Part shown: positions 13,799-20,161 of the stretch, in pieces
Numbering within the stretch: position 1 is the first letter of the stretch
Layout: each line of letters begins with the position of its first letter
Assembly: GCF_044383825.1 (NCBI RefSeq)
Contig: NZ_JBISEN010000005.1
Span: 53,095 to 77,094 of the forward strand
Reading direction: 5' to 3'
Source: Jeotgalibacillus sp. JSM ZJ347
GTDB taxonomy: Bacteria; Bacillota; Bacilli; Bacillales; Jeotgalibacillaceae
DNA length: 24,000 nucleotides
Made by a program: the position numbers and the translations under genes
The notes under the pieces: model-generated
The model's database searches: none
What the model saw: only the letters and a program-made list of their open reading frames with translations
Told to the model about the DNA's origin: nothing

Positions 13799-13965
13799 AA
13801 AATGATTTTATCCAACATTTCCATCTGCCCATTTTCACGCTATACTTAAGGCAGGACTTAATAAGGGATGTAACCGAACCTTTACAGATAGAGGAGGAGT
13901 GGCGCTGCCCGGCTGATCGATTGACACATCCAGATCCATCACCCCGAGCAGCAGCCCCGAAGCGT

Positions 13966-14574
13966 ATGTCAAAACCATCATCATCTGCCTACGTACTCGC
14001 GTATGAAACGATCCGTGACAGAATTCTAAACGGAGAATTAGAAGGCGGAACAAAATTAACAGAAGAACGCCTTGCTGAAGAACTCGGCGTCAGCCGTACA
14101 CCCATCAGAGAATCCATCAGGCGGCTTGAGCAGGAAGGCTTAATCAAAAAGAAACGCGTCGTCAAACCAACCGAAAGCGACCTACGCCACATGTTCCAGG
14201 TACGCATGATCCTAGAAGGTCACGCCGCCAGAACCGCAGCCGCCTACATGACAGACGACGAACTCACAGCACTCGCCGAATGTATCCACGTCGGCCGCAC
14301 CGGCACCATCGAAGAAATCATGAAAGCCAATAAACAATTCCACGACTTAATTGTTCAAGCAAGTCGCAACCCTGTCATGATTGATATCATTGATCAGATG
14401 CAGTCGATTATTTATCTGTTCAGAAAAACCGTTGTGTATCATAAGAGACCTGGGTTGATTGATGAGCATGAGGAGATTTATGAAGCGATTAAGGGTAGAG
14501 ATGCTGAGAAGGCTGAGGAATTGATGAAGAAGCATTTGCAGGCGGATTTGGATTTTTCGGTGCATGTATTGTAA
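13966..14574 (+). CDS. GntR-family (FadR/FCD subfamily) transcriptional regulator
   Basis: YETIRDRILNGELEGGTKLTEERLAEELGVSRTPIRESIRRLEQEGLI is the GntR wHTH, and the helical C-terminal part is FCD-like. I prefer ATG 13966. The track's TTG 13921 start adds a Pro/Ala-rich extension, and neither start has a good RBS. Confidence 0.8.
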   Translation: MSKPSSSAYVLAYETIRDRILNGELEGGTKLTEERLAEELGVSRTPIRESIRRLEQEGLIKKKRVVKPTESDLRHMFQVRMILEGHAARTAAAYMTDDELTALAECIHVGRTGTIEEIMKANKQFHDLIVQASRNPVMIDIIDQMQSIIYLFRKTVVYHKRPGLIDEHEEIYEAIKGRDAEKAEELMKKHLQADLDFSVHVL

Positions 14575-14615
14575 TAGGAAAAAGCGTTGATTGGGGATCA
14601 ACGCTTTTTCCTATT
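14573..14615. terminator. Bidirectional rho-independent terminator (19-bp perfect stem)
   Basis: AATAGGAAAAAGCGTTGAT-tgggg-ATCAACGCTTTTTCCTATT. A-run/T-run flanks are built into the stem. It serves the GntR gene (+) and probably the 598-aa gene (-). Confidence 0.85.
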
Positions 14616-14667
14616 ACATTCTAGATCTTATAAAGACCACAAGCACAGGAGCAAACTTTGTGTAATT

Positions 14668-16464
14668 TTATTTAATTAACGCTTGAAAAGCTTTATATAT
14701 AGGAAGATTACTCAAAGCCTCTTGCTCCGTTTTACTCAAGGAATTAAATATTTTATTTGACTTATGCTTATTTCCTAATATAACCTCACATGCAAAACAT
14801 ATTGAGCTTTCGCTTTTCTTCTCCGCTTTTTCAAGTATTTCAAAGATCTCTTGCTCATCTTTAGTACTTAACTGAATTCTTTTCTTTATTTTTATCAAAT
14901 TGATATTAATTTTTGCTATATCGCTTTCTGGATCCTTTTCTAAATACCCTTCATTGAGTTCTAAAGCCAAATCTAAATATCTTTCATCATTGATTGAATC
15001 ATAATAATTTATACAATCCAAAGATTTGTTTATAGTAACGTCAGATTCAATGTCATGAAACTCCTCAGTGAAAGATAATTTAAATATATCAAAATTAAAA
15101 TTTGCCATTTCTTCTAAATCATTTATTTTTTCTGGAGTAAATATACTTACTTTCCAATACTTATCGTTCCAATCATTTCCCTTCCACTCACTAAATTCTT
15201 GTTCAAATTTTATTTCACTTTTGGGAGTAAATCCTCCCACTATAGACAATGCTTCTTTGCTAAACATATTAATAAATTTATTTCCGCTATACATAACCTT
15301 TATTTTTATATAATTTGATAACTCTAGATTAAATATCATATCTTCTATTTTAAAGTCTTTCTCAAAATTAATACGATCTAACTTTTTATCATTAAAAATT
15401 TCTATAATATCAGTAAAAAGATGCTCTAAGTCCTCGTTCTTATCAAACTCATAATTTGCACTAATTCCTATTTGATTAAAAATGTTTTTCATTTCTTCAT
15501 AAAACTTTATATCAGTTGACAAATTATCAAATAAGTCTTTTTCTGTTATAGTTACACCCAGGTTAATCTTATTAAAAGGTAGTTTACCTTTTTCGATGTG
15601 ATATTTAATGAAATACAAGCATTTCAAGTATGAATCGATCGATTTTATTTTATCTATATGTAACTTACCTGTTTTCACCTCTTTATAGACCTCGAGAGTT
15701 AATGTGTTTTCTATAATTACTATGATCTTATCTTCTGATTCTCTTATATTGTAATTAATCACCAAGCTATTATTGTCTATTTCAACCACTTCAAAATTAC
15801 CCATTTTAATCTCTTTTAGTAGTACAGAATTAAGAGGAATCTCATAATTATTTAAAATTCCGTACAAATAAACGCTCTCTTCAAACAAATTATAGCCCTC
15901 TTTATCAGTATCATGGAAACGGATCTTATAATTGGTGAAATCTTTTTCGTGAGATGCCTCAATTAAATGTTTTGGCTGGCTTTCTACTACTCTCAAAGTG
16001 TTAATGCAGATTGATTCTAGTTCTCCTATATTCAAAACTTTAAATGATATTGAGATCGTTTCATTACCGCTATTCTTAAGTTGATATAGTATACCTTTTA
16101 AATCTAACGGTGCAAGTCTTCTATAATATGCTTGCTTTGCTCGTGTGGCTTTATTTATGGTAACTACAAAGTAAAGTACACCTTGCCCATCTTTGTAATA
16201 GACCTCTAAGTCTTTTTTGGCGACACTATGTTTTATTTTATTTTTTTTATTTACTTTTTTAAAAGTTGTTGTTCCTTTTACTTGAACAGGAACTCTCCCT
16301 TTAAAATTAGCTTTTTCTATAGCACCATTATATATCTCAACATCACCATCAAATGAGAGCCCTTTGTCGTTCCACTTTACATTACTAATTAATCTGTATG
16401 GTGGTTGCAGTATATGATAGTTAATCTCCATACAAGCTAAGTGCTCAATAATCACCTTATCCAT
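14668..16464 (-). CDS. 598-aa hypothetical protein; N-terminal DUF4365 / PD-(D/E)xK nuclease-like domain plus about 430 aa of unassigned, partly helical sequence (candidate effector of the RT locus)
   Basis: Residues about 7-65 read EHLACME...NDKGLSFDGDVEIY...GRVPVQVKGTT. That gives the E ... DxGxD ... QxK arrangement I associate with DUF4365 and Mrr-like restriction-endonuclease folds. The protein is Lys/Asn/Ile-rich and the gene is very AT-rich. GAGGTG RBS. The domain assignment is from memory of the family pattern, not from a search. Confidence 0.6.
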   Translation of the reverse strand: MDKVIIEHLACMEINYHILQPPYRLISNVKWNDKGLSFDGDVEIYNGAIEKANFKGRVPVQVKGTTTFKKVNKKNKIKHSVAKKDLEVYYKDGQGVLYFVVTINKATRAKQAYYRRLAPLDLKGILYQLKNSGNETISISFKVLNIGELESICINTLRVVESQPKHLIEASHEKDFTNYKIRFHDTDKEGYNLFEESVYLYGILNNYEIPLNSVLLKEIKMGNFEVVEIDNNSLVINYNIRESEDKIIVIIENTLTLEVYKEVKTGKLHIDKIKSIDSYLKCLYFIKYHIEKGKLPFNKINLGVTITEKDLFDNLSTDIKFYEEMKNIFNQIGISANYEFDKNEDLEHLFTDIIEIFNDKKLDRINFEKDFKIEDMIFNLELSNYIKIKVMYSGNKFINMFSKEALSIVGGFTPKSEIKFEQEFSEWKGNDWNDKYWKVSIFTPEKINDLEEMANFNFDIFKLSFTEEFHDIESDVTINKSLDCINYYDSINDERYLDLALELNEGYLEKDPESDIAKININLIKIKKRIQLSTKDEQEIFEILEKAEKKSESSICFACEVILGNKHKSNKIFNSLSKTEQEALSNLPIYKAFQALIK

Positions 16465-16691: not shown

Positions 16692-17807
16692 TCAATAGAG
16701 TTTGTCAAATATTTTCATCACCAATTTATTTTTGGTTATTTTTAGAGGTTGAGGTATTCCAATATTATTGGCAATTAAATGAAGTTGAGAAAGAGTAGCT
16801 TTGTTATAGTTATAAATCTGCGGTGCTTGTGAAAGGTTTAAAGAAAATAATAATTTTTTATTTTTTTTACTAAACAATCTGGAGGTATTAATTTGTTTAG
16901 CAATTTCTTTATTTAGTAAATCATAGCTTTCATATCTATTAATACGTTTATAACTATTTTTAAATCCATAAGATACTATTTTATTAGTAGAATATTTTTT
17001 TGTTTCAACTTTCCACAAAAGATTTCTTAAAGAATAATATAAGATATAAACATCCGATTGATTTCTGCTGCTATGAAAATAACGTGAAAATAATTCTTGG
17101 ATCTTTTTTATATATTTTTTAATTTTATCATTACTAACAGAAACGTCGATTTCATTTGAACCGTTGCTACTTTTGAAGGAATAACCAAGATATGAAAAAT
17201 CAAAATTGTTTTCTTTATTAACAACTTGTAGTTGAGTTTTATCATTTAGTTCTAACTGATAATTTTTCAAAAGCTTTTCAACTAAAGATATTAAATGATC
17301 TTTTTGTTCTTTGTGGTTACCATAAATCACTACAATAATATCATCTACAAATCTTTCATAGAGTTGTATATTAGGAAGAATAATCGGCATAAGTTGATCA
17401 AATTCTTCAAGATAAATTTCTGACAACGATGAAGAAAAGCTTATTCCCTGTGGCAACCCTTTAACCTTATTAGAAAACACGATTTCTTTCACCTTATTTA
17501 ACGAGTTCTCTTTTAACATCATAGACTTATTTAATTTTTGATACAGTTTATGAGTATTTATACTCTCAAAAAAATTCTTCACATCAAATCTTAAAATTGT
17601 CAGAGATGTCCCTTTAGCTATTTTTTCATTTTTATTACTTAAAACAGTTAATAAAGCATCAATTATGTAATCTCTGTTTTTATCTATTAATCTATACTTA
17701 TTTTTAAGTTCTAAATGAATCTGATAGTCAACTAGTTTTTGACTCGAAGGCGCTACATAAATATTACGATTTTTTATTATTAGACGCTTATATTTAGAAA
17801 CTTTCAA
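16692..17807 (-). CDS. Reverse transcriptase, compact form (371 aa), non-retron, non-intron; candidate defence RT (UG8/DRT3b-like by size and context)
   Basis: RT motifs read in the translation: IIKNRNIYVAPSSQKLVDYQI (RT1/2-like), LRFDVKNFFESINTHKL (motif A Asp), GLPQGISFSSSLSEIYLEEFD (motif B), YERFVDDIIVV (motif C, FVDD in place of YxDD), LELNDKTQ, and SYLGYSF (motif 7). TTG start with AAGGAG 10 nt upstream. Confidence 0.85.
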   Translation of the reverse strand: MKVSKYKRLIIKNRNIYVAPSSQKLVDYQIHLELKNKYRLIDKNRDYIIDALLTVLSNKNEKIAKGTSLTILRFDVKNFFESINTHKLYQKLNKSMMLKENSLNKVKEIVFSNKVKGLPQGISFSSSLSEIYLEEFDQLMPIILPNIQLYERFVDDIIVVIYGNHKEQKDHLISLVEKLLKNYQLELNDKTQLQVVNKENNFDFSYLGYSFKSSNGSNEIDVSVSNDKIKKYIKKIQELFSRYFHSSRNQSDVYILYYSLRNLLWKVETKKYSTNKIVSYGFKNSYKRINRYESYDLLNKEIAKQINTSRLFSKKNKKLLFSLNLSQAPQIYNYNKATLSQLHLIANNIGIPQPLKITKNKLVMKIFDKLY

Positions 17808-18064
17808 AGGTAATTCACTCCTTTTAAAGGTATGGCTAGGTGGTAAGCAAGCTCACCACCTTATCACCCCTCAACAAGCGGGTAATATTGGAGCTTAATT
17901 ATATAATGAATCAAGATCCCTAATGTGTGTGCAAGGAGCAGGTACTGTTCAACAGTATAATGTAAAAGCTTGACCGATCTAACAGTATATAAGTTGAATA
18001 AACCATTTCCCGTGTTACTTTTGGCCGATACCTCTGTTATTATAATAAGAAATAAAACAAAAAA
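17808..18064. ncRNA. Candidate structured non-coding RNA / shared control region between the two divergent RT genes (orientation unknown)
   Basis: 257 bp without a credible ORF. Patches are visibly more GC-rich than the surrounding island (for example 17832-17895). Features are a hairpin AGGTGGT-N10-ACCACCT (17838-17861), a palindrome TACTGTT-c-AACAGTA (17943-17957), direct repeats AACAGTATA (17951-17959 and 17981-17989) and TG(A/G)CCGAT (17971-17978 and 18022-18029), and a (TG)4 tract (17924-17931). The RNA itself is inferred, not demonstrated. Confidence 0.35.
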
Positions 18065-18079
18065 ATGGAAGAGGTTATT

Positions 18080-19966
18080 ATGAAAAATAAGTTTTTTCTT
18101 AAAACTGATGTTTTACCTTCAGAATTGCCAATAAATTTCACAAACAAAAACCTATATTTAGCAAAAAAGGATTTTTCGAATAAGATATATACTATTCCTT
18201 ATAATTTTGAAATCCCTAAACCTAATTCAATTAATAATAGGGTATTGAGTTTGCCTCATCCCATTGCACAATTACAAATGATGAATTTTATTGATGCATT
18301 TAAGTTTAATATAACTAGTTTTTGTTCGCTGTCACCCTTCAGTATAAGATCTCCTTATAAAATAAATTCAATAAATACTCATTTAATAAAAAGAAAGCTA
18401 CAAAAAATTACATATGACAATGAACAGTTTTTTAATGCTGATGATAAATATATGATCAGGCTATCTTATAACGATGTTGTTGAAGAATATCATAATTTTT
18501 TTAGATACAAGAAATTTAGTATGCTTACTCAATTTTTAAATTCTCCCATATATCATCGATCGAAATCTAAGTATGATAATTTTATGAAATTAGATATCCA
18601 AAATTATTTTGACTCAATTTACACCCATTCTATAGAATGGGCATTGGCAGGTGATAAATACAGTATCAAAACAGGGTCTTTAAATACAAATACTGATGAC
18701 TTTCTGAAGGCTATAGATTTAATATGTCAACAGATAAATTACAAAGAAACCAACGGAATCATAATAGGTCCAGAATTCTCTAGGATTATATCTGAAATTC
18801 TTTTAACAAGAATTGATTTAAATATATTTAGGGATTTGTTTGATGTTGGATTAAAATATAATAAAGATTATATTATTTATCGTTATATTGATGATTACTT
18901 TATTTTTTTCAATAATGTTAGTGATATGAATGATGATAAAATTAAAGGAATAATTAGTAATAGACTTAAAGAATACAAATTATCATTAAACGATAACAAA
19001 TATGCTTTAGCAGATTCCAAAACTACTTTAGAAGATGACAGTATTGTCACATTAATCAAAGTAATAGATTACTTTTCCCAAAAATATTTCGAAACTTCTA
19101 ACTTTGATAATCGTATGAAATACATAAGTAATTTCTTAATTGATTTTGAAGTTATTATACAAAAATACCCTACTAAAAAACAAAAGTTAGTAAGATATAC
19201 CTTAAAGTCTCTAAATAAATTTATCAAAACTACCAAGGTGGAACGTGACCGGAAATTAATATTCGAACTAGCTTTACACTTATTTTCTCATTCTCCTGAA
19301 TATTATAGTTCTAGGTATTACTATACTTTTTTTCTTAAATGTATAGAATTCTCTAAAAAAGAAAAAATGGACAAGAGTCTGCTACGCAAGTTAGATGAAG
19401 ACGCTTTTCATTTTATGGTGAAAGCTTTAAAACAGAATTCAAATCACTTCCCTAAAATATACGATTTACTTATAGCAATGAAATTTTTAGATAAGAAAAT
19501 ATCCTCTTCTTTACTTTGTTCACTAATTGAAAAACATAAAAACGATTATTTCAGTCTTTGCACAATTGCATTATATATATTAAATGAAGACAAAATTGTT
19601 ACTAAGCAATATATTATTGTGCTTAAAAAAATTATTTCCACTCTGGATTTCTTTTTAAAAAATTATACTCAAAAAAGCCCAAAGAAATATCAAGACGCTT
19701 TTTACTTCTATCTAATTAATGACTTTTATCATTATCCTGGGTTCAACAAAAATTTTATTACAAAAAAAATTCATATGTCTTTAAAAAATGAATATAATGA
19801 GATGAAAAAAAATATGAATTTAGAATCATCTGTAACTCCTTCTGAGATTGATGTATTAATCAACAGATCTTATTTTAATTGGACCTGTAAGTTTGAATGG
19901 TTCTTTAAAAGAAGTATTCTTAAATCTGAAAACATTTCAAATGATACTATTAATAGCGATTATTAA
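18080..19966 (+). CDS. Reverse transcriptase, large UG/Abi-type (628 aa from ATG 18080; 633 aa from track start 18065) with a long helical C-terminal extension
   Basis: Motifs: LPSELPINF ... RVLSLPHPIAQLQ (N-terminal RT region), FMKLDIQNYFDSIYTHSIEWAL (motif A plus the SIYTHS signature I associate with Abi/UG defence RTs), NGIIIGPEFSRIISEILLTRID (motif B), and YRYIDDYFIFF (YxDD). About 330 aa of Lys/Tyr/Phe-rich helical sequence follows. GAGG lies 5 nt upstream of ATG 18080. Confidence 0.85.
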   Translation: MKNKFFLKTDVLPSELPINFTNKNLYLAKKDFSNKIYTIPYNFEIPKPNSINNRVLSLPHPIAQLQMMNFIDAFKFNITSFCSLSPFSIRSPYKINSINTHLIKRKLQKITYDNEQFFNADDKYMIRLSYNDVVEEYHNFFRYKKFSMLTQFLNSPIYHRSKSKYDNFMKLDIQNYFDSIYTHSIEWALAGDKYSIKTGSLNTNTDDFLKAIDLICQQINYKETNGIIIGPEFSRIISEILLTRIDLNIFRDLFDVGLKYNKDYIIYRYIDDYFIFFNNVSDMNDDKIKGIISNRLKEYKLSLNDNKYALADSKTTLEDDSIVTLIKVIDYFSQKYFETSNFDNRMKYISNFLIDFEVIIQKYPTKKQKLVRYTLKSLNKFIKTTKVERDRKLIFELALHLFSHSPEYYSSRYYYTFFLKCIEFSKKEKMDKSLLRKLDEDAFHFMVKALKQNSNHFPKIYDLLIAMKFLDKKISSSLLCSLIEKHKNDYFSLCTIALYILNEDKIVTKQYIIVLKKIISTLDFFLKNYTQKSPKKYQDAFYFYLINDFYHYPGFNKNFITKKIHMSLKNEYNEMKKNMNLESSVTPSEIDVLINRSYFNWTCKFEWFFKRSILKSENISNDTINSDY

Positions 19967-20007
19967 TTGAAATATTGACAAATCAAAATCATATTATAAA
20001 AAACAAA

Positions 20008-20086
20008 CCCTGCGTTAGAAGTTATTTATGTCGACAATCAAAATCAGTTAACCTTAAAAAGATTGTTCAGCGCAGGGTATTTTTTT
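20008..20086. terminator. Bidirectional terminator-like element with an unusually large (56-nt) loop
   Basis: AAAAAACAAA-CCCTGCG ... CGCAGGG-TATTTTTTT. It has an A-run upstream and a T-run downstream, so either strand reads stem plus U-tract. An inner helper stem is GACAATC / GATTGTT. It lies between the large RT gene (+) and DegV (-). Confidence 0.5.
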
Positions 20087-20161
20087 ATTAGATTTTTATA
20101 AAACTCAATTTTATGTAGTTAGTACTTTCCCTATGATAAGTAACTGTCAGTTTAATCTTTT

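What the first reader, a model, noticed from the sequence alone, without database searches (positions are those of the whole stretch)
17808..18079. Comparatively GC-rich, hairpin- and repeat-containing region between the RT genes: candidate system ncRNA
Seen: the island is otherwise extremely AT-rich, but this spacer has GC-richer patches, which suggests structural constraint. It contains a perfect hairpin AGGTGGT-N10-ACCACCT (17838-17861) just upstream of the short RT's RBS, and a palindrome TACTGTT-c-AACAGTA (17943-17957). The 9-mer AACAGTATA occurs twice, 30 nt apart, and TG(A/G)CCGAT occurs twice. TATAAT boxes lie at 17902-17907 and 18041-18046 on the plus strand, and one lies at 17903-17898 on the minus strand. 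Established: DRT2, DRT3, DRT9 and retrons all depend on a structured ncRNA encoded next to the RT. Inference: a template or scaffold RNA may be transcribed here, and I cannot tell from which strand.
Basis: partly seen in the sequence, partly recalled or inferred. Interest (0 to 1): 0.7.

Follow-up and report, generated by a model that had tools for sequence, protein, structure and literature searches.

The report
DRT3 template RNA upstream of drt3a
The spacer between two back-to-back antiviral reverse-transcriptase genes encodes, on the minus strand, a folded non-coding RNA whose exposed CACACACA stretch is most likely the template from which the smaller enzyme makes poly(TG) DNA; this is an expected part of the known DRT3 defence system, here in its less-studied Bacillota gene layout.

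Summary
Taken one at a time, the motifs are no more than chance would give.

The two genes are Drt3a (16692-17807, minus) and Drt3b (18080-19966, plus), so this is a DRT3 system. The only ACACAC in the AT-rich block lies in the spacer on the minus strand, within CACACACA at 17931-17924. ACACAC is the published template of the DRT3 ncRNA.

The minus strand folds well (z -3.7 to -4.2) and the plus strand does not. In 32 related Bacillota loci with the same divergent layout, 28 carry ACACAC in the spacer, always on the drt3a strand, and the other 4 carry ACACA. None of 26 has it downstream of drt3b.

The predicted RNA runs about 18035-17826. It starts just after a conserved TATAAT and is closed by helix P1. 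A stem ends 2 nt 5' of the unpaired template, and three hairpins follow it. The RNA ends at the drt3a ribosome-binding site.

Mestre et al. (2022) already noted this divergent layout. Verdict: a real ncRNA and a new member of a known kind. There are no expression data.

The parts
17826..18035 (-). Predicted DRT3 ncRNA, measured from P1 5' strand to P1 3' strand, about 210 nt. It is probably the 5' leader of the drt3a transcript.
   Evidence: Minus-strand fold z = -4.2 against -1.4 for the antisense. Covariance model R1 matches 18037-17824. On the five-sequence alignment, 89.8% of cells pair, against 36-42% in the slid controls, and 12 pairs show compensatory change. Nucleotide identity to relatives is 72-74%.
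18039..18044 (-). TATAAT -10 box for the ncRNA/drt3a transcript, 3 nt before P1. It overlaps the plus-strand TATAAT (18041-18046), the likely drt3b -10 box.
   Evidence: Read directly from the sequence. A perfect TATAAT on the drt3a strand lies 0-9 nt before P1 in window, L081, L084-L087, L012, L023 and L004, and a 5/6 match in L001, L019 and L090. No good -35 was found.
18024..18035 (-). P1 5' strand, AGAGGUAU(C)GGC
   Evidence: Pairs 11/11 with 17836-17826. In the curated comparison with L081, L084-L087, 66/66 cells pair and 6 positions change compensatorily. A closing helix of unrelated sequence is present in almost all divergent loci folded.
17934..18011 (-). P2 domain. The outer stem is GGGAAAUGGU (18011-18002) with ACCUGCUCCU (17943-17934).
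   Evidence: The outer stem pairs 7/10 in the window, with 3 compensatory positions across relatives. The interior fits the relatives' helices poorly (7/16). The stem ends 2 nt 5' of the template, so it is a candidate template boundary.
17924..17931 (-). Template candidate, 5'-CACACACA-3'. It contains the DRT3 ACACAC motif at 17930-17925.
   Evidence: It is the only ACACAC in 14.6-20.1 kb. It is mostly unpaired in the MFE fold. The same motif on the same strand occurs in 28/32 divergent loci, and ACACA in the other 4. ACACAC is the experimentally shown template of the EcoDRT3 ncRNA (PMC13174585).
17890..17920 (-). SLa, the hairpin directly 3' of the template (GGGAUCUUGAUU...AAUUAAGCUCC). Its loop holds the internal TATAAT boxes.
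   Evidence: Pairs 9/10 in the window, with one U.C mismatch. The block ACACACA-UUAGGGAU is conserved in L081-L087. One search gives curated pairs.
17864..17885 (-). SLb hairpin (UUACCC...GGGUGA)
   Evidence: All 6 stem positions differ compensatorily between the window, L081/L085 and L084. MFE fold.
17838..17861 (-). It forms 10 bp on the minus strand, using G.U pairs, but only 7 bp on the plus strand.
   Evidence: There are 3 compensatory positions: GGUGG/CCACC, GAUGG/CCAUC and GGCGG/CCGCC.
17826..17836 (-). P1 3' strand, GCCAUACCUUU. The drt3a RBS AGGAG (17822-17818) follows directly, and the TTG start is at 17807.
   Evidence: No terminator-like site lies between P1 and the RBS.
16692..17807 (-). 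drt3a (UG3, Class 2 RT), 371 aa, with an intact FVDD catalytic motif
   Evidence: PADLOC Drt3a 3.1e-63. NCBIfam Drt3a 3.2e-45, below the equivalog cut-off. 29% identity to EcoDRT3a.
18080..19966 (+). drt3b (UG8, Class 1 RT), 628 aa counted from ATG 18080
   Evidence: PADLOC Drt3b 6.6e-117. NCBIfam Drt3b 1.8e-82. The counterparts of EcoDRT3b E22, R71, R241 and YVDD are kept as E15, R54, R235 and YIDD, and the last residue is Tyr.

Best explanation
The spacer encodes the DRT3 non-coding RNA on the minus strand, about 210 nt (roughly 18035 to 17826).

Inferred: transcription starts a few bases after the TATAAT at 18044-18039. The RNA is the structured 5' leader of the drt3a message, and it may or may not be cut free.

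Shown by prediction and comparison: helix P1 pairs the first 12 nt with the 11 nt just before the drt3a ribosome-binding site. Inside P1 lie a long stem domain (P2), an unpaired CACACACA beginning 2 nt after P2, and three hairpins (SLa, SLb, SLc).

Inferred from the E. coli DRT3 experiments and the related DRT10 system: Drt3a binds this RNA and copies the AC repeat again and again. [quoted passage not shown] Drt3b keeps the Glu and Arg gate residues and the C-terminal priming tyrosine. It makes the complementary poly(dC-dA) without a template, and the two strands anneal to double-stranded DNA that drives abortive infection.
For: 1. The genes are Drt3a and Drt3b.

2. ACACAC is the published conserved template of the DRT3 ncRNA. 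Mutating it abolishes poly(dTdG) synthesis and defence (PMC13174585). The only ACACAC in the AT-rich block is on the minus strand at 17930-17925, inside the spacer.

3. The motif's position tracks the gene layout.
- Of 32 divergent Bacillota loci, 28 have ACACAC in the spacer on the drt3a strand. None has it on the other strand of a true spacer. The other 4 have ACACA.
- None of 26 divergent loci has ACACAC downstream of drt3b.
- In co-directional loci, 37 of 44 have it downstream of drt3b.

4. Strand.
- Whole spacer: z = -3.66 for the minus strand against -0.51 for the plus strand.
- Across 18 loci: mean z = -5.6 on the drt3a strand against -3.8 on the other, and the drt3a strand folds better in 15 of 18.
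- In the consensus helices, 40 cells are G.U and 5 are A.C.

5. Structure conservation.
- 89.8% of cells pair, against 36-42% in the slid controls. 12 pairs change on both sides, against 5.7 +/- 1.8 in shuffles, with 0 of 500 shuffles reaching 12.
- Curated helices show 3 to 6 compensatory positions each in P1, P2 outer, SLa, SLb and SLc.
- A closing P1 of unrelated sequence, and an unpaired template, are found in nearly all groups.

6. The spacer is as conserved as the coding DNA.

7. A -10 box sits at a fixed short distance before P1 in most groups, and the RBS follows P1.

8. The topology matches EcoDRT3. In both, a closing P1 encloses a stem that abuts the 5' side of the template. In DRT10, the stem 5' of the template sets the template boundary (PMC12632851).

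9. Model R1 finds the spacers of more distant relatives at the right place and strand: L086 and L087 at E about 1e-5, L088 at 0.017 and L089 at 0.7.
Against: - There are no expression, RNA-binding or cDNA data for this organism. Everything is prediction and comparison.
- The promoter is only a -10 box. The consensus scan finds no sigma-70-type site here.
- Covariation within the window's own group rests on 5 sequences from about 4 lineages, and the structure was derived from those same sequences.
- The interior of P2 in the window does not fit the relatives' helices (7 of 16 pairs), and SLa has a U.C mismatch.
- No Rfam family matches.
- My model does not reach Streptococcus, Enterococcus or proteobacterial DRT3 RNAs. 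Homology with the E. coli ncRNA therefore rests on motif, context and topology, not on sequence.
- The RNA lies upstream of drt3a rather than downstream of drt3b, and has three hairpins that EcoDRT3 lacks.
Confidence: 0.85

Rival explanations
1. The spacer is only a divergent promoter and leader region. Its folds regulate drt3a translation or mRNA stability (a cis-regulatory leader), and the AC run is not used as a template.
For: The RNA is contiguous with the drt3a RBS, with no terminator between them. In the window, P1's 5' strand could alternatively pair over the TTG start (direct repeat D1). The -10 boxes of the two promoters overlap.
Against: A purely regulatory leader does not explain why an unpaired ACACA(C) run is kept on the drt3a strand in 32 of 32 divergent loci. 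It also does not explain why the motif sits downstream of drt3b exactly when the genes are co-directional. The alternative start-codon pairing is not conserved in relatives. No Rfam cis-regulatory family matches. A regulatory side-role alongside templating is not excluded.
Confidence: 0.07
2. The RNA binds the RTs as a scaffold or activator only. Alternatively, it templates a product other than poly(TG) in this lineage.
For: The three extra hairpins after the template have no counterpart in EcoDRT3. The E. coli complex uses the RNA as a scaffold in a 6:6:6 assembly (review PMC13314766). Some relatives have only ACACA.
Against: The AC run is 8 nt, unpaired and flanked as in EcoDRT3. Drt3b keeps the residues that enforce the complementary CA repeat, which argues for the same pair of products.
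Confidence: 0.05
3. The functional transcript is on the plus strand, as an antisense or drt3b-leader RNA.
For: Plus-strand TATAAT boxes lie at 17902, 17956 and 18041. Stems made of Watson-Crick pairs also form on the opposite strand.
Against: The plus-strand fold is no better than shuffles (z = -0.51). G.U pairs outnumber A.C pairs 40 to 5 in the conserved helices. On the plus strand the motif would read GUGUGU. The internal TATAAT boxes are not conserved. The conserved box at 18041 would start drt3b transcription near 18053, outside the structured part.
Confidence: 0.02
4. It is a retron-like msr/msd unit: inverted repeats flanking a template, upstream of its RT.
For: The layout is superficially similar, with a structured RNA closed by a long-range helix just upstream of an RT gene.
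Against: The RT scores as Drt3a (3e-63) and far lower as a retron RT (2e-12 in PADLOC, 3e-13 in NCBIfam). It is paired with Drt3b in every relative. The conserved single-stranded element is the DRT3 AC repeat, not an msd stem.
Confidence: 0.01

Closest known systems
EcoDRT3 ncRNA (E. coli ECOR12; Wang, Yoneyama et al. 2026 preprint, PMC13174585; first reported as essential by Gao et al. 2020, per Mestre 2022)
   Same: It belongs to a Drt3a + Drt3b system. It has an unpaired ACACAC run. A closing helix P1 encloses the template, and a stem abuts the template on its 5' side. The partner Drt3b keeps E22, R71, R241, YxDD and the C-terminal Tyr.
   Different: The E. coli RNA is 161 nt, lies downstream of drt3b on the operon strand and ends in a terminator. 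Its template is followed directly by the P1 3' strand. The window RNA is about 210 nt, lies upstream of drt3a in a divergent spacer, has three hairpins between the template and the P1 3' strand, and runs into the drt3a RBS. No sequence similarity is detectable outside the motif.
'Terrabacteria' UG3/UG8 groups of Mestre et al. 2022 (NAR, PMC9226505): UG3 and UG8 on opposite strands, 'ncRNA upstream of UG8'
   Same: This is the same gene layout and the same place for the ncRNA. The window (Jeotgalibacillus, Bacillota) evidently belongs to this set.
   Different: In the text I could read, that paper claims the CACACA motif only for the canonical groups 1-17 and does not give the strand. Here the motif is found in the divergent set too, always on the UG3/drt3a strand, and an anatomy is proposed. 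Their supplementary figures were not available to me.
DRT10 (UG17) ncRNA and telomerase RNA
   Same: Drt3a's next-best PADLOC family is UG17 (9e-29). In both cases a short template sits in a single-stranded stretch directly 3' of a stem that sets the template boundary, and repeats are added by re-alignment (PMC12632851).
   Different: The DRT10 template gives 9-nt repeats and varies between systems, and its partner is a SLATT protein. Here the repeat unit is 2 nt and the partner is a second RT.
DRT2 (UG2) and DRT9 (UG28) ncRNAs
   Same: The ncRNA is encoded immediately 5' of the RT gene that uses it (Mestre 2022).
   Different: The RT families and products differ: rolling-circle concatemer cDNA for DRT2 and poly-dA for DRT9. 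There is no second RT.

Membership tests
DRT3 defence system | A Drt3a (UG3, Class 2) reverse transcriptase is present with an intact catalytic motif | tested here: met
   PADLOC Drt3a 3.1e-63. NCBIfam Drt3a 3.2e-45, at 155 bits, below the equivalog cut-off of 200. BLASTP to EcoDRT3a gives 4e-21. FVDD is present.
DRT3 defence system | An adjacent Drt3b (UG8, Class 1) carries the residues for protein-primed, protein-templated poly(dCdA) synthesis (E22, R71, R241, YVDD, Y666 in E. coli) | tested here: met
   PADLOC Drt3b 6.6e-117. The alignment to EcoDRT3b keeps E15, R54, R235 and YIDD. The protein ends in Tyr. The C-terminal Tyr was matched by position only, because the E. coli C-terminus was cut off in the table I could read.
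DRT3 defence system | Canonical operon order drt3a - drt3b - ncRNA on one strand | tested here: not met
   The genes are divergent and the RNA lies between them. This is the alternative layout already recorded for Terrabacteria (PMC9226505). It therefore changes the subtype, not membership of the system.
DRT3 ncRNA | A conserved, exposed 5'-ACACAC-3' template motif | tested here: met
   CACACACA at 17931-17924 on the minus strand, with 6 of 8 bases unpaired in the MFE fold. The motif is conserved in 28 of 32 divergent loci, and ACACA in the rest.
DRT3 ncRNA | The template lies inside a closing helix, directly 3' of a stem-loop (SL4 in E. coli) | tested here: met
   P1 pairs 18035-18024 with 17836-17826. 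The P2 outer stem ends 2 nt before the template. EcoDRT3 folds the same way. These are predictions, not probing data.
DRT3 ncRNA | [quoted passage not shown] | not testable with these tools
   The model is not in Rfam, where no family matched, and is not otherwise available here. Canonical ncRNAs from different groups share no alignable sequence even with each other (Mestre 2022).
DRT3 ncRNA | The RNA is expressed, binds the RT complex and templates poly(dTdG) | not testable with these tools
   This needs RNA-seq, RIP-seq and cDNA sequencing.
Retron msr/msd | A retron-type RT next to an msr-msd flanked by inverted repeats | tested here: not met
   Retron RT models score 2e-12 (PADLOC) and 3e-13 (NCBIfam), against 3e-63 for Drt3a. 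No Rfam retron family matches.

The most novel reading that the evidence does not exclude
In the Bacillota subtype the template RNA is not a separate gene. It is the 5' leader of the drt3a message itself, a promoter-ncRNA-RT module like those of DRT2, DRT9 and DRT10, and it may be the ancestral Class 2 layout onto which drt3b was added back-to-back. On this reading Drt3a would load in cis onto the transcript it is translated from. The overlapping -10 boxes (18039-18046) would make RNA polymerase choose between the drt3b arm and the ncRNA-drt3a arm, which would set the ratio of the two RTs. The three extra hairpins (SLa-SLc) would be a lineage-specific scaffold for the Drt3a-Drt3b-RNA complex.
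Probability: 0.25. Interest if true: 0.5.

Novelty: new member of a known kind. Interest (0 to 1): 0.38.

Why it matters
DRT3 is the system in which one reverse transcriptase copies an RNA repeat while a second writes the complementary DNA strand using only its own amino acids. All the mechanistic work has been done on one E. coli operon.

A 2026 review lists as open whether all DRT3 systems share one architecture, or whether subtypes with other motif outputs exist (PMC13314766). This locus and its 31 relatives give a computational answer for the Bacillota subtype:
- The gene order is rearranged and the RNA has moved to the 5' side of drt3a and gained a three-hairpin domain.
- The AC-repeat template, the stem that bounds it, and the Drt3b gate residues are all kept.
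- The same TG/CA duplex product is therefore predicted.

The result also gives exact coordinates and testable helices for a Gram-positive DRT3 RNA. It explains why annotation pipelines miss the system: both proteins fall below the NCBIfam cut-offs, and no Rfam family exists.

Tried and rejected
- **Rfam.** Searches at gathering and E-value thresholds found nothing in the spacer. The only hits were chance-level miRNA/snoRNA matches elsewhere.
- **Exact-pattern scans.** I scanned metagenome and viral contigs for ACACACANTAGGGAT (template plus the start of SLa). This returned 120 and 35 stretches, but none encodes a Drt3a or Drt3b relative.
- **Covariance model R1.** Built from the window and its four closest relatives, it finds only that group plus L086 and L087. 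With filters off it also finds L088 and L089 weakly. It cannot link to the Streptococcus, Enterococcus or proteobacterial RNAs.
- **BLASTN with the E. coli ncRNA.** Searching the downstream regions of 44 co-directional loci gave only 9-10-nt chance matches. A model of the canonical RNA that could be tested on the window therefore could not be built.
- **Cognate versus non-cognate P1 duplex test.** RNAduplex on long AT-rich segments was uninformative. An ungapped helix score was only weakly discriminating (mean 24.9 for cognate pairs against 20.1 for non-cognate) and missed the window's bulged P1. I rely instead on the helix-by-helix tables.
- **MAFFT and model-fitted alignments.** Both keep SLb and SLc out of register for the window and L084. 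Those two hairpins were compared by hand, which leans towards the structure.
- **Small ORFs.** The spacer has ORFs of 27-37 aa. I rejected them because their start codons and frames are not kept in relatives.

Full report
**What is in the sequence.** The finding covers the 272-nt spacer between two divergently oriented genes inside a 5.5-kb AT-rich block (about 14.6-20.1 kb) flanked by ordinary metabolic genes. The spacer is 36% GC, and its central 210 nt are 40% GC, against 25% for the two flanking genes. Taken one by one the motifs are unremarkable. About one in five dinucleotide-preserving shuffles of the region contains an exact 9-mer repeat, and about one in five contains a perfect 7-bp hairpin. 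What is unusual is the region as a whole, and only on one strand.

**The genes.** The 371-aa minus-strand ORF (16692-17807) is Drt3a/UG3 (PADLOC 3e-63). The plus-strand ORF is Drt3b/UG8 (7e-117). NCBIfam agrees, although both proteins fall below the equivalog cut-offs. That fits the public annotation of the identical protein from Jeotgalibacillus sp. JSM ZJ347 as a plain 'RNA-directed DNA polymerase'. Homologue alignments put the drt3b start at ATG 18080, behind GGAAGAGG, rather than at 18065. Both catalytic motifs are intact (FVDD and YIDD). Aligned to E. coli Drt3b, the window protein keeps the residues shown to enforce alternating dA/dC addition: E22, R71 and R241 correspond to E15, R54 and R235. 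It also ends in a tyrosine, as expected for the priming residue Y666.

In the E. coli system, Drt3a copies a conserved 5'-ACACAC-3' loop of an ncRNA into poly(dT-dG). Drt3b makes poly(dC-dA) with no nucleic-acid template, and mutating the loop abolishes the product and defence (PMC13174585). The only ACACAC anywhere in the AT-rich block is on the minus strand at 17930-17925, inside an 8-nt run CACACACA (17931-17924) in the middle of the spacer. Nothing comparable lies downstream of drt3b, where the E. coli RNA is encoded. That region holds only a terminator-like stem.

**Strand.** As RNA, the minus strand of the spacer folds far better than shuffled controls (z = -3.66, with 0 of 200 shuffles as good). 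The plus strand does not (z = -0.51).

**Relatives.** I collected 92 loci through Drt3a homologues.
- They fall into two layouts. Divergent drt3b<- ->drt3a occurs in Bacillota: Sporosarcina, Bacillus, Terribacillus, Planococcus, Enterococcus, Streptococcus, Leuconostoc and others. Co-directional drt3a->drt3b occurs in Proteobacteria, Bacteroidota and others.
- In the divergent set, 28 of 32 loci have ACACAC in the spacer on the drt3a strand. None has it on the other strand of a true spacer. The remaining four have UACACA.
- None of 26 divergent loci has the motif downstream of drt3b.
- In the co-directional set, 37 of 44 loci have it 30-210 nt downstream of drt3b.
- The template motif therefore follows the RNA's position in each layout. 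A 250-nt AT-rich spacer would carry it by chance about 5% of the time (my estimate from base composition).

**Anatomy.** The window's four closest relatives (60-62% protein identity) align across the whole spacer. The non-coding DNA is as conserved as the genes: 72-74% against 70-74% nucleotide identity. The consensus fold, mapped to the window, gives the following elements:
- A perfect TATAAT on the drt3a strand (18044-18039), 3 nt before P1.
- P1, pairing 18035-18024 with 17836-17826, 11 of 11 pairs.
- A long P2 domain whose outer stem (18011-18002 with 17943-17934) ends 2 nt before the template.
- The unpaired CACACACA.
- The P1 3' strand, followed at once by AGGAG and the TTG start of drt3a. 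No terminator lies between them.

**Pairing statistics.** On the unfitted MAFFT alignment, 89.8% of cells pair, against 36-42% when partners are slid by 1-3 columns. Twelve pairs change on both sides, against 5.7 +/- 1.8 in shuffles, and 0 of 500 shuffles reach 12. G.U cells outnumber A.C cells 40 to 5, which fixes the strand. Hand-registered tables give 6 compensatory positions in P1 (66 of 66 cells paired, including L086 and L087), 3 in the P2 outer stem, 5 in SLa, 6 in SLb and 3 in SLc. These counts come from five sequences and about four lineages, and the structure was derived from those same sequences, so they support the structure rather than prove it.

**More distant groups.** Primary sequence is unrecognisable apart from the AC run, but the plan recurs. 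A -10-like box lies a few bases before a closing helix of completely different sequence. Examples are AUAGGUAGAUUGU/ACAGUCUACCUAU, GUAGGC/GCCUAC, CACCAAUACU/AGUAUUGGUG and GCGGCAU/AUGCCGC. The AC run is unpaired and sits 0-8 nt after a helix, and an RBS follows P1. Most groups have about three hairpins after the template. Two distant loci (L019, L023) have none, and in that respect look like the E. coli RNA, which also folds as P1[stem-loops - template]P1'. P1-to-P1 segments fold with mean z = -5.6 on the drt3a strand against -3.8 on the other, and the drt3a strand is better in 15 of 18 loci. A covariance model built from the window's group finds the spacers of L086 and L087 (E about 1e-5), L088 (0.017) and L089 (0.7) on the correct strand, but nothing further.

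The palindrome TACTGTT-c-AACAGTA, the twice-occurring AACAGTATA and the TG(A/G)CCGAT pair all lie in the interior of P2 or in the P1 5' strand, and are not present in relatives. In the window the interior of P2 fits the relatives' helices poorly (7 of 16 pairs). It may have been remodelled or partly duplicated, and I cannot resolve it. The TATAAT boxes at 17898-17907 are in the loop of SLa and read TATTTT or TACATA in relatives. Only the box at 18039-18046 is conserved. It reads TATAAT on both strands, so the two divergent -10 elements overlap.

**Mechanism.** Shown here are the gene identities, the motif, its strand, its conservation, and the predicted, covarying fold. Inferred from E. coli DRT3 and from DRT10, where the stem 5' of the template sets the boundary, is the following:
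- Drt3a binds the RNA and copies the AC run, stopping at P2.
- The product slips back in 2-nt register and is extended to poly(dT-dG).
- Drt3b makes poly(dC-dA), primed from its C-terminal Tyr.
- The two strands anneal, and the duplex triggers abortive infection when the host can no longer degrade it.

Whether the RNA is released from the drt3a message, what primes Drt3a, and what the three extra hairpins do are all unknown.

**Comparison with what is known, and novelty.** Mestre et al. 2022 already recorded that in 'Terrabacteria' UG3 and UG8 are often on opposite strands with 'the ncRNA upstream of UG8'. In the text available to me, they reported the CACACA motif only for the canonical groups. 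Wang et al. modelled only downstream ncRNAs. This locus is therefore a new member of a known kind. The added value is the strand, the template, the promoter-to-RBS boundaries and a helix map for the Bacillota subtype, together with the prediction that its product is the same TG/CA duplex. The rival readings are a purely regulatory leader, a scaffold-only RNA, a plus-strand RNA and a retron-like unit. I rate these at 0.07, 0.05, 0.02 and 0.01 for the reasons given in their entries. I put 0.85 on the main explanation. The remaining doubt comes from the complete lack of expression or biochemical data for this lineage.

Noticed in passing
window 14570-14618: A perfect 23-bp hairpin (z = -7.5) lies between the convergent GntR-type gene (13921-14574, plus) and the DUF4365 gene (14668-16464, minus). 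It marks the left edge of the AT-rich block and gave weak miRNA-like Rfam hits. It looks like a bidirectional terminator.
   Followed up: partly
window 14668-16464 (minus): A 598-aa ORF with an N-terminal DUF4365 domain sits downstream of drt3a in the same AT-rich block. It has no PADLOC or NCBIfam hit and is absent next to DRT3 in all relatives examined. It is probably a separate, unclassified defence-island gene rather than part of DRT3.
   Followed up: partly
window 18037-18048: The palindrome TTATTATAATAA puts a TATAAT on both strands (plus 18041-18046, minus 18044-18039). The -10 boxes of the drt3b promoter and the ncRNA/drt3a promoter therefore overlap, which could make the two arms compete for RNA polymerase.
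   Followed up: no
window 17801-17812 and 17821-17832: There is a direct repeat, CTTTCAAAGGTA / CTTTTAAAGGTA. On the RNA strand the start-codon region UACCUUUG repeats the end of the P1 3' strand, so the P1 5' strand could alternatively pair over the TTG start of drt3a. This is not conserved in relatives.
   Followed up: partly
window 17944-18001: The interior of the P2 domain carries window-specific repeats (UAUACUGUU twice, AUCGG(C/U)CA twice) and fits the relatives' helices poorly. This may reflect an internal duplication or remodelling.
   Followed up: partly
L019 4720-4835 and L023 4690-4805 (Clostridiales and Bacillota MAGs): These are short-type spacer RNAs, about 110 nt. The template is only ACACA and is followed directly by the P1 3' strand, the same topology as the E. 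coli RNA. They contrast with the long type, which has three hairpins after the template, so at least two RNA topologies exist within the divergent layout.
   Followed up: partly
window 20007-20090: A terminator-like stem, CCCUGCG...CGCAGGG followed by a U-run, lies after drt3b. No AC-repeat motif is present there, so there is no canonical downstream DRT3 ncRNA in this locus.
   Followed up: yes
L081/L082 and L084 (relatives), 100-2706: In the closest relatives the DRT3 pair sits next to groES-groEL, and in L081 beside an IS3-type transposase. In the window it lies between a GntR-type regulator and a DegV-like gene. The module is therefore mobile between chromosomal sites.
   Followed up: no
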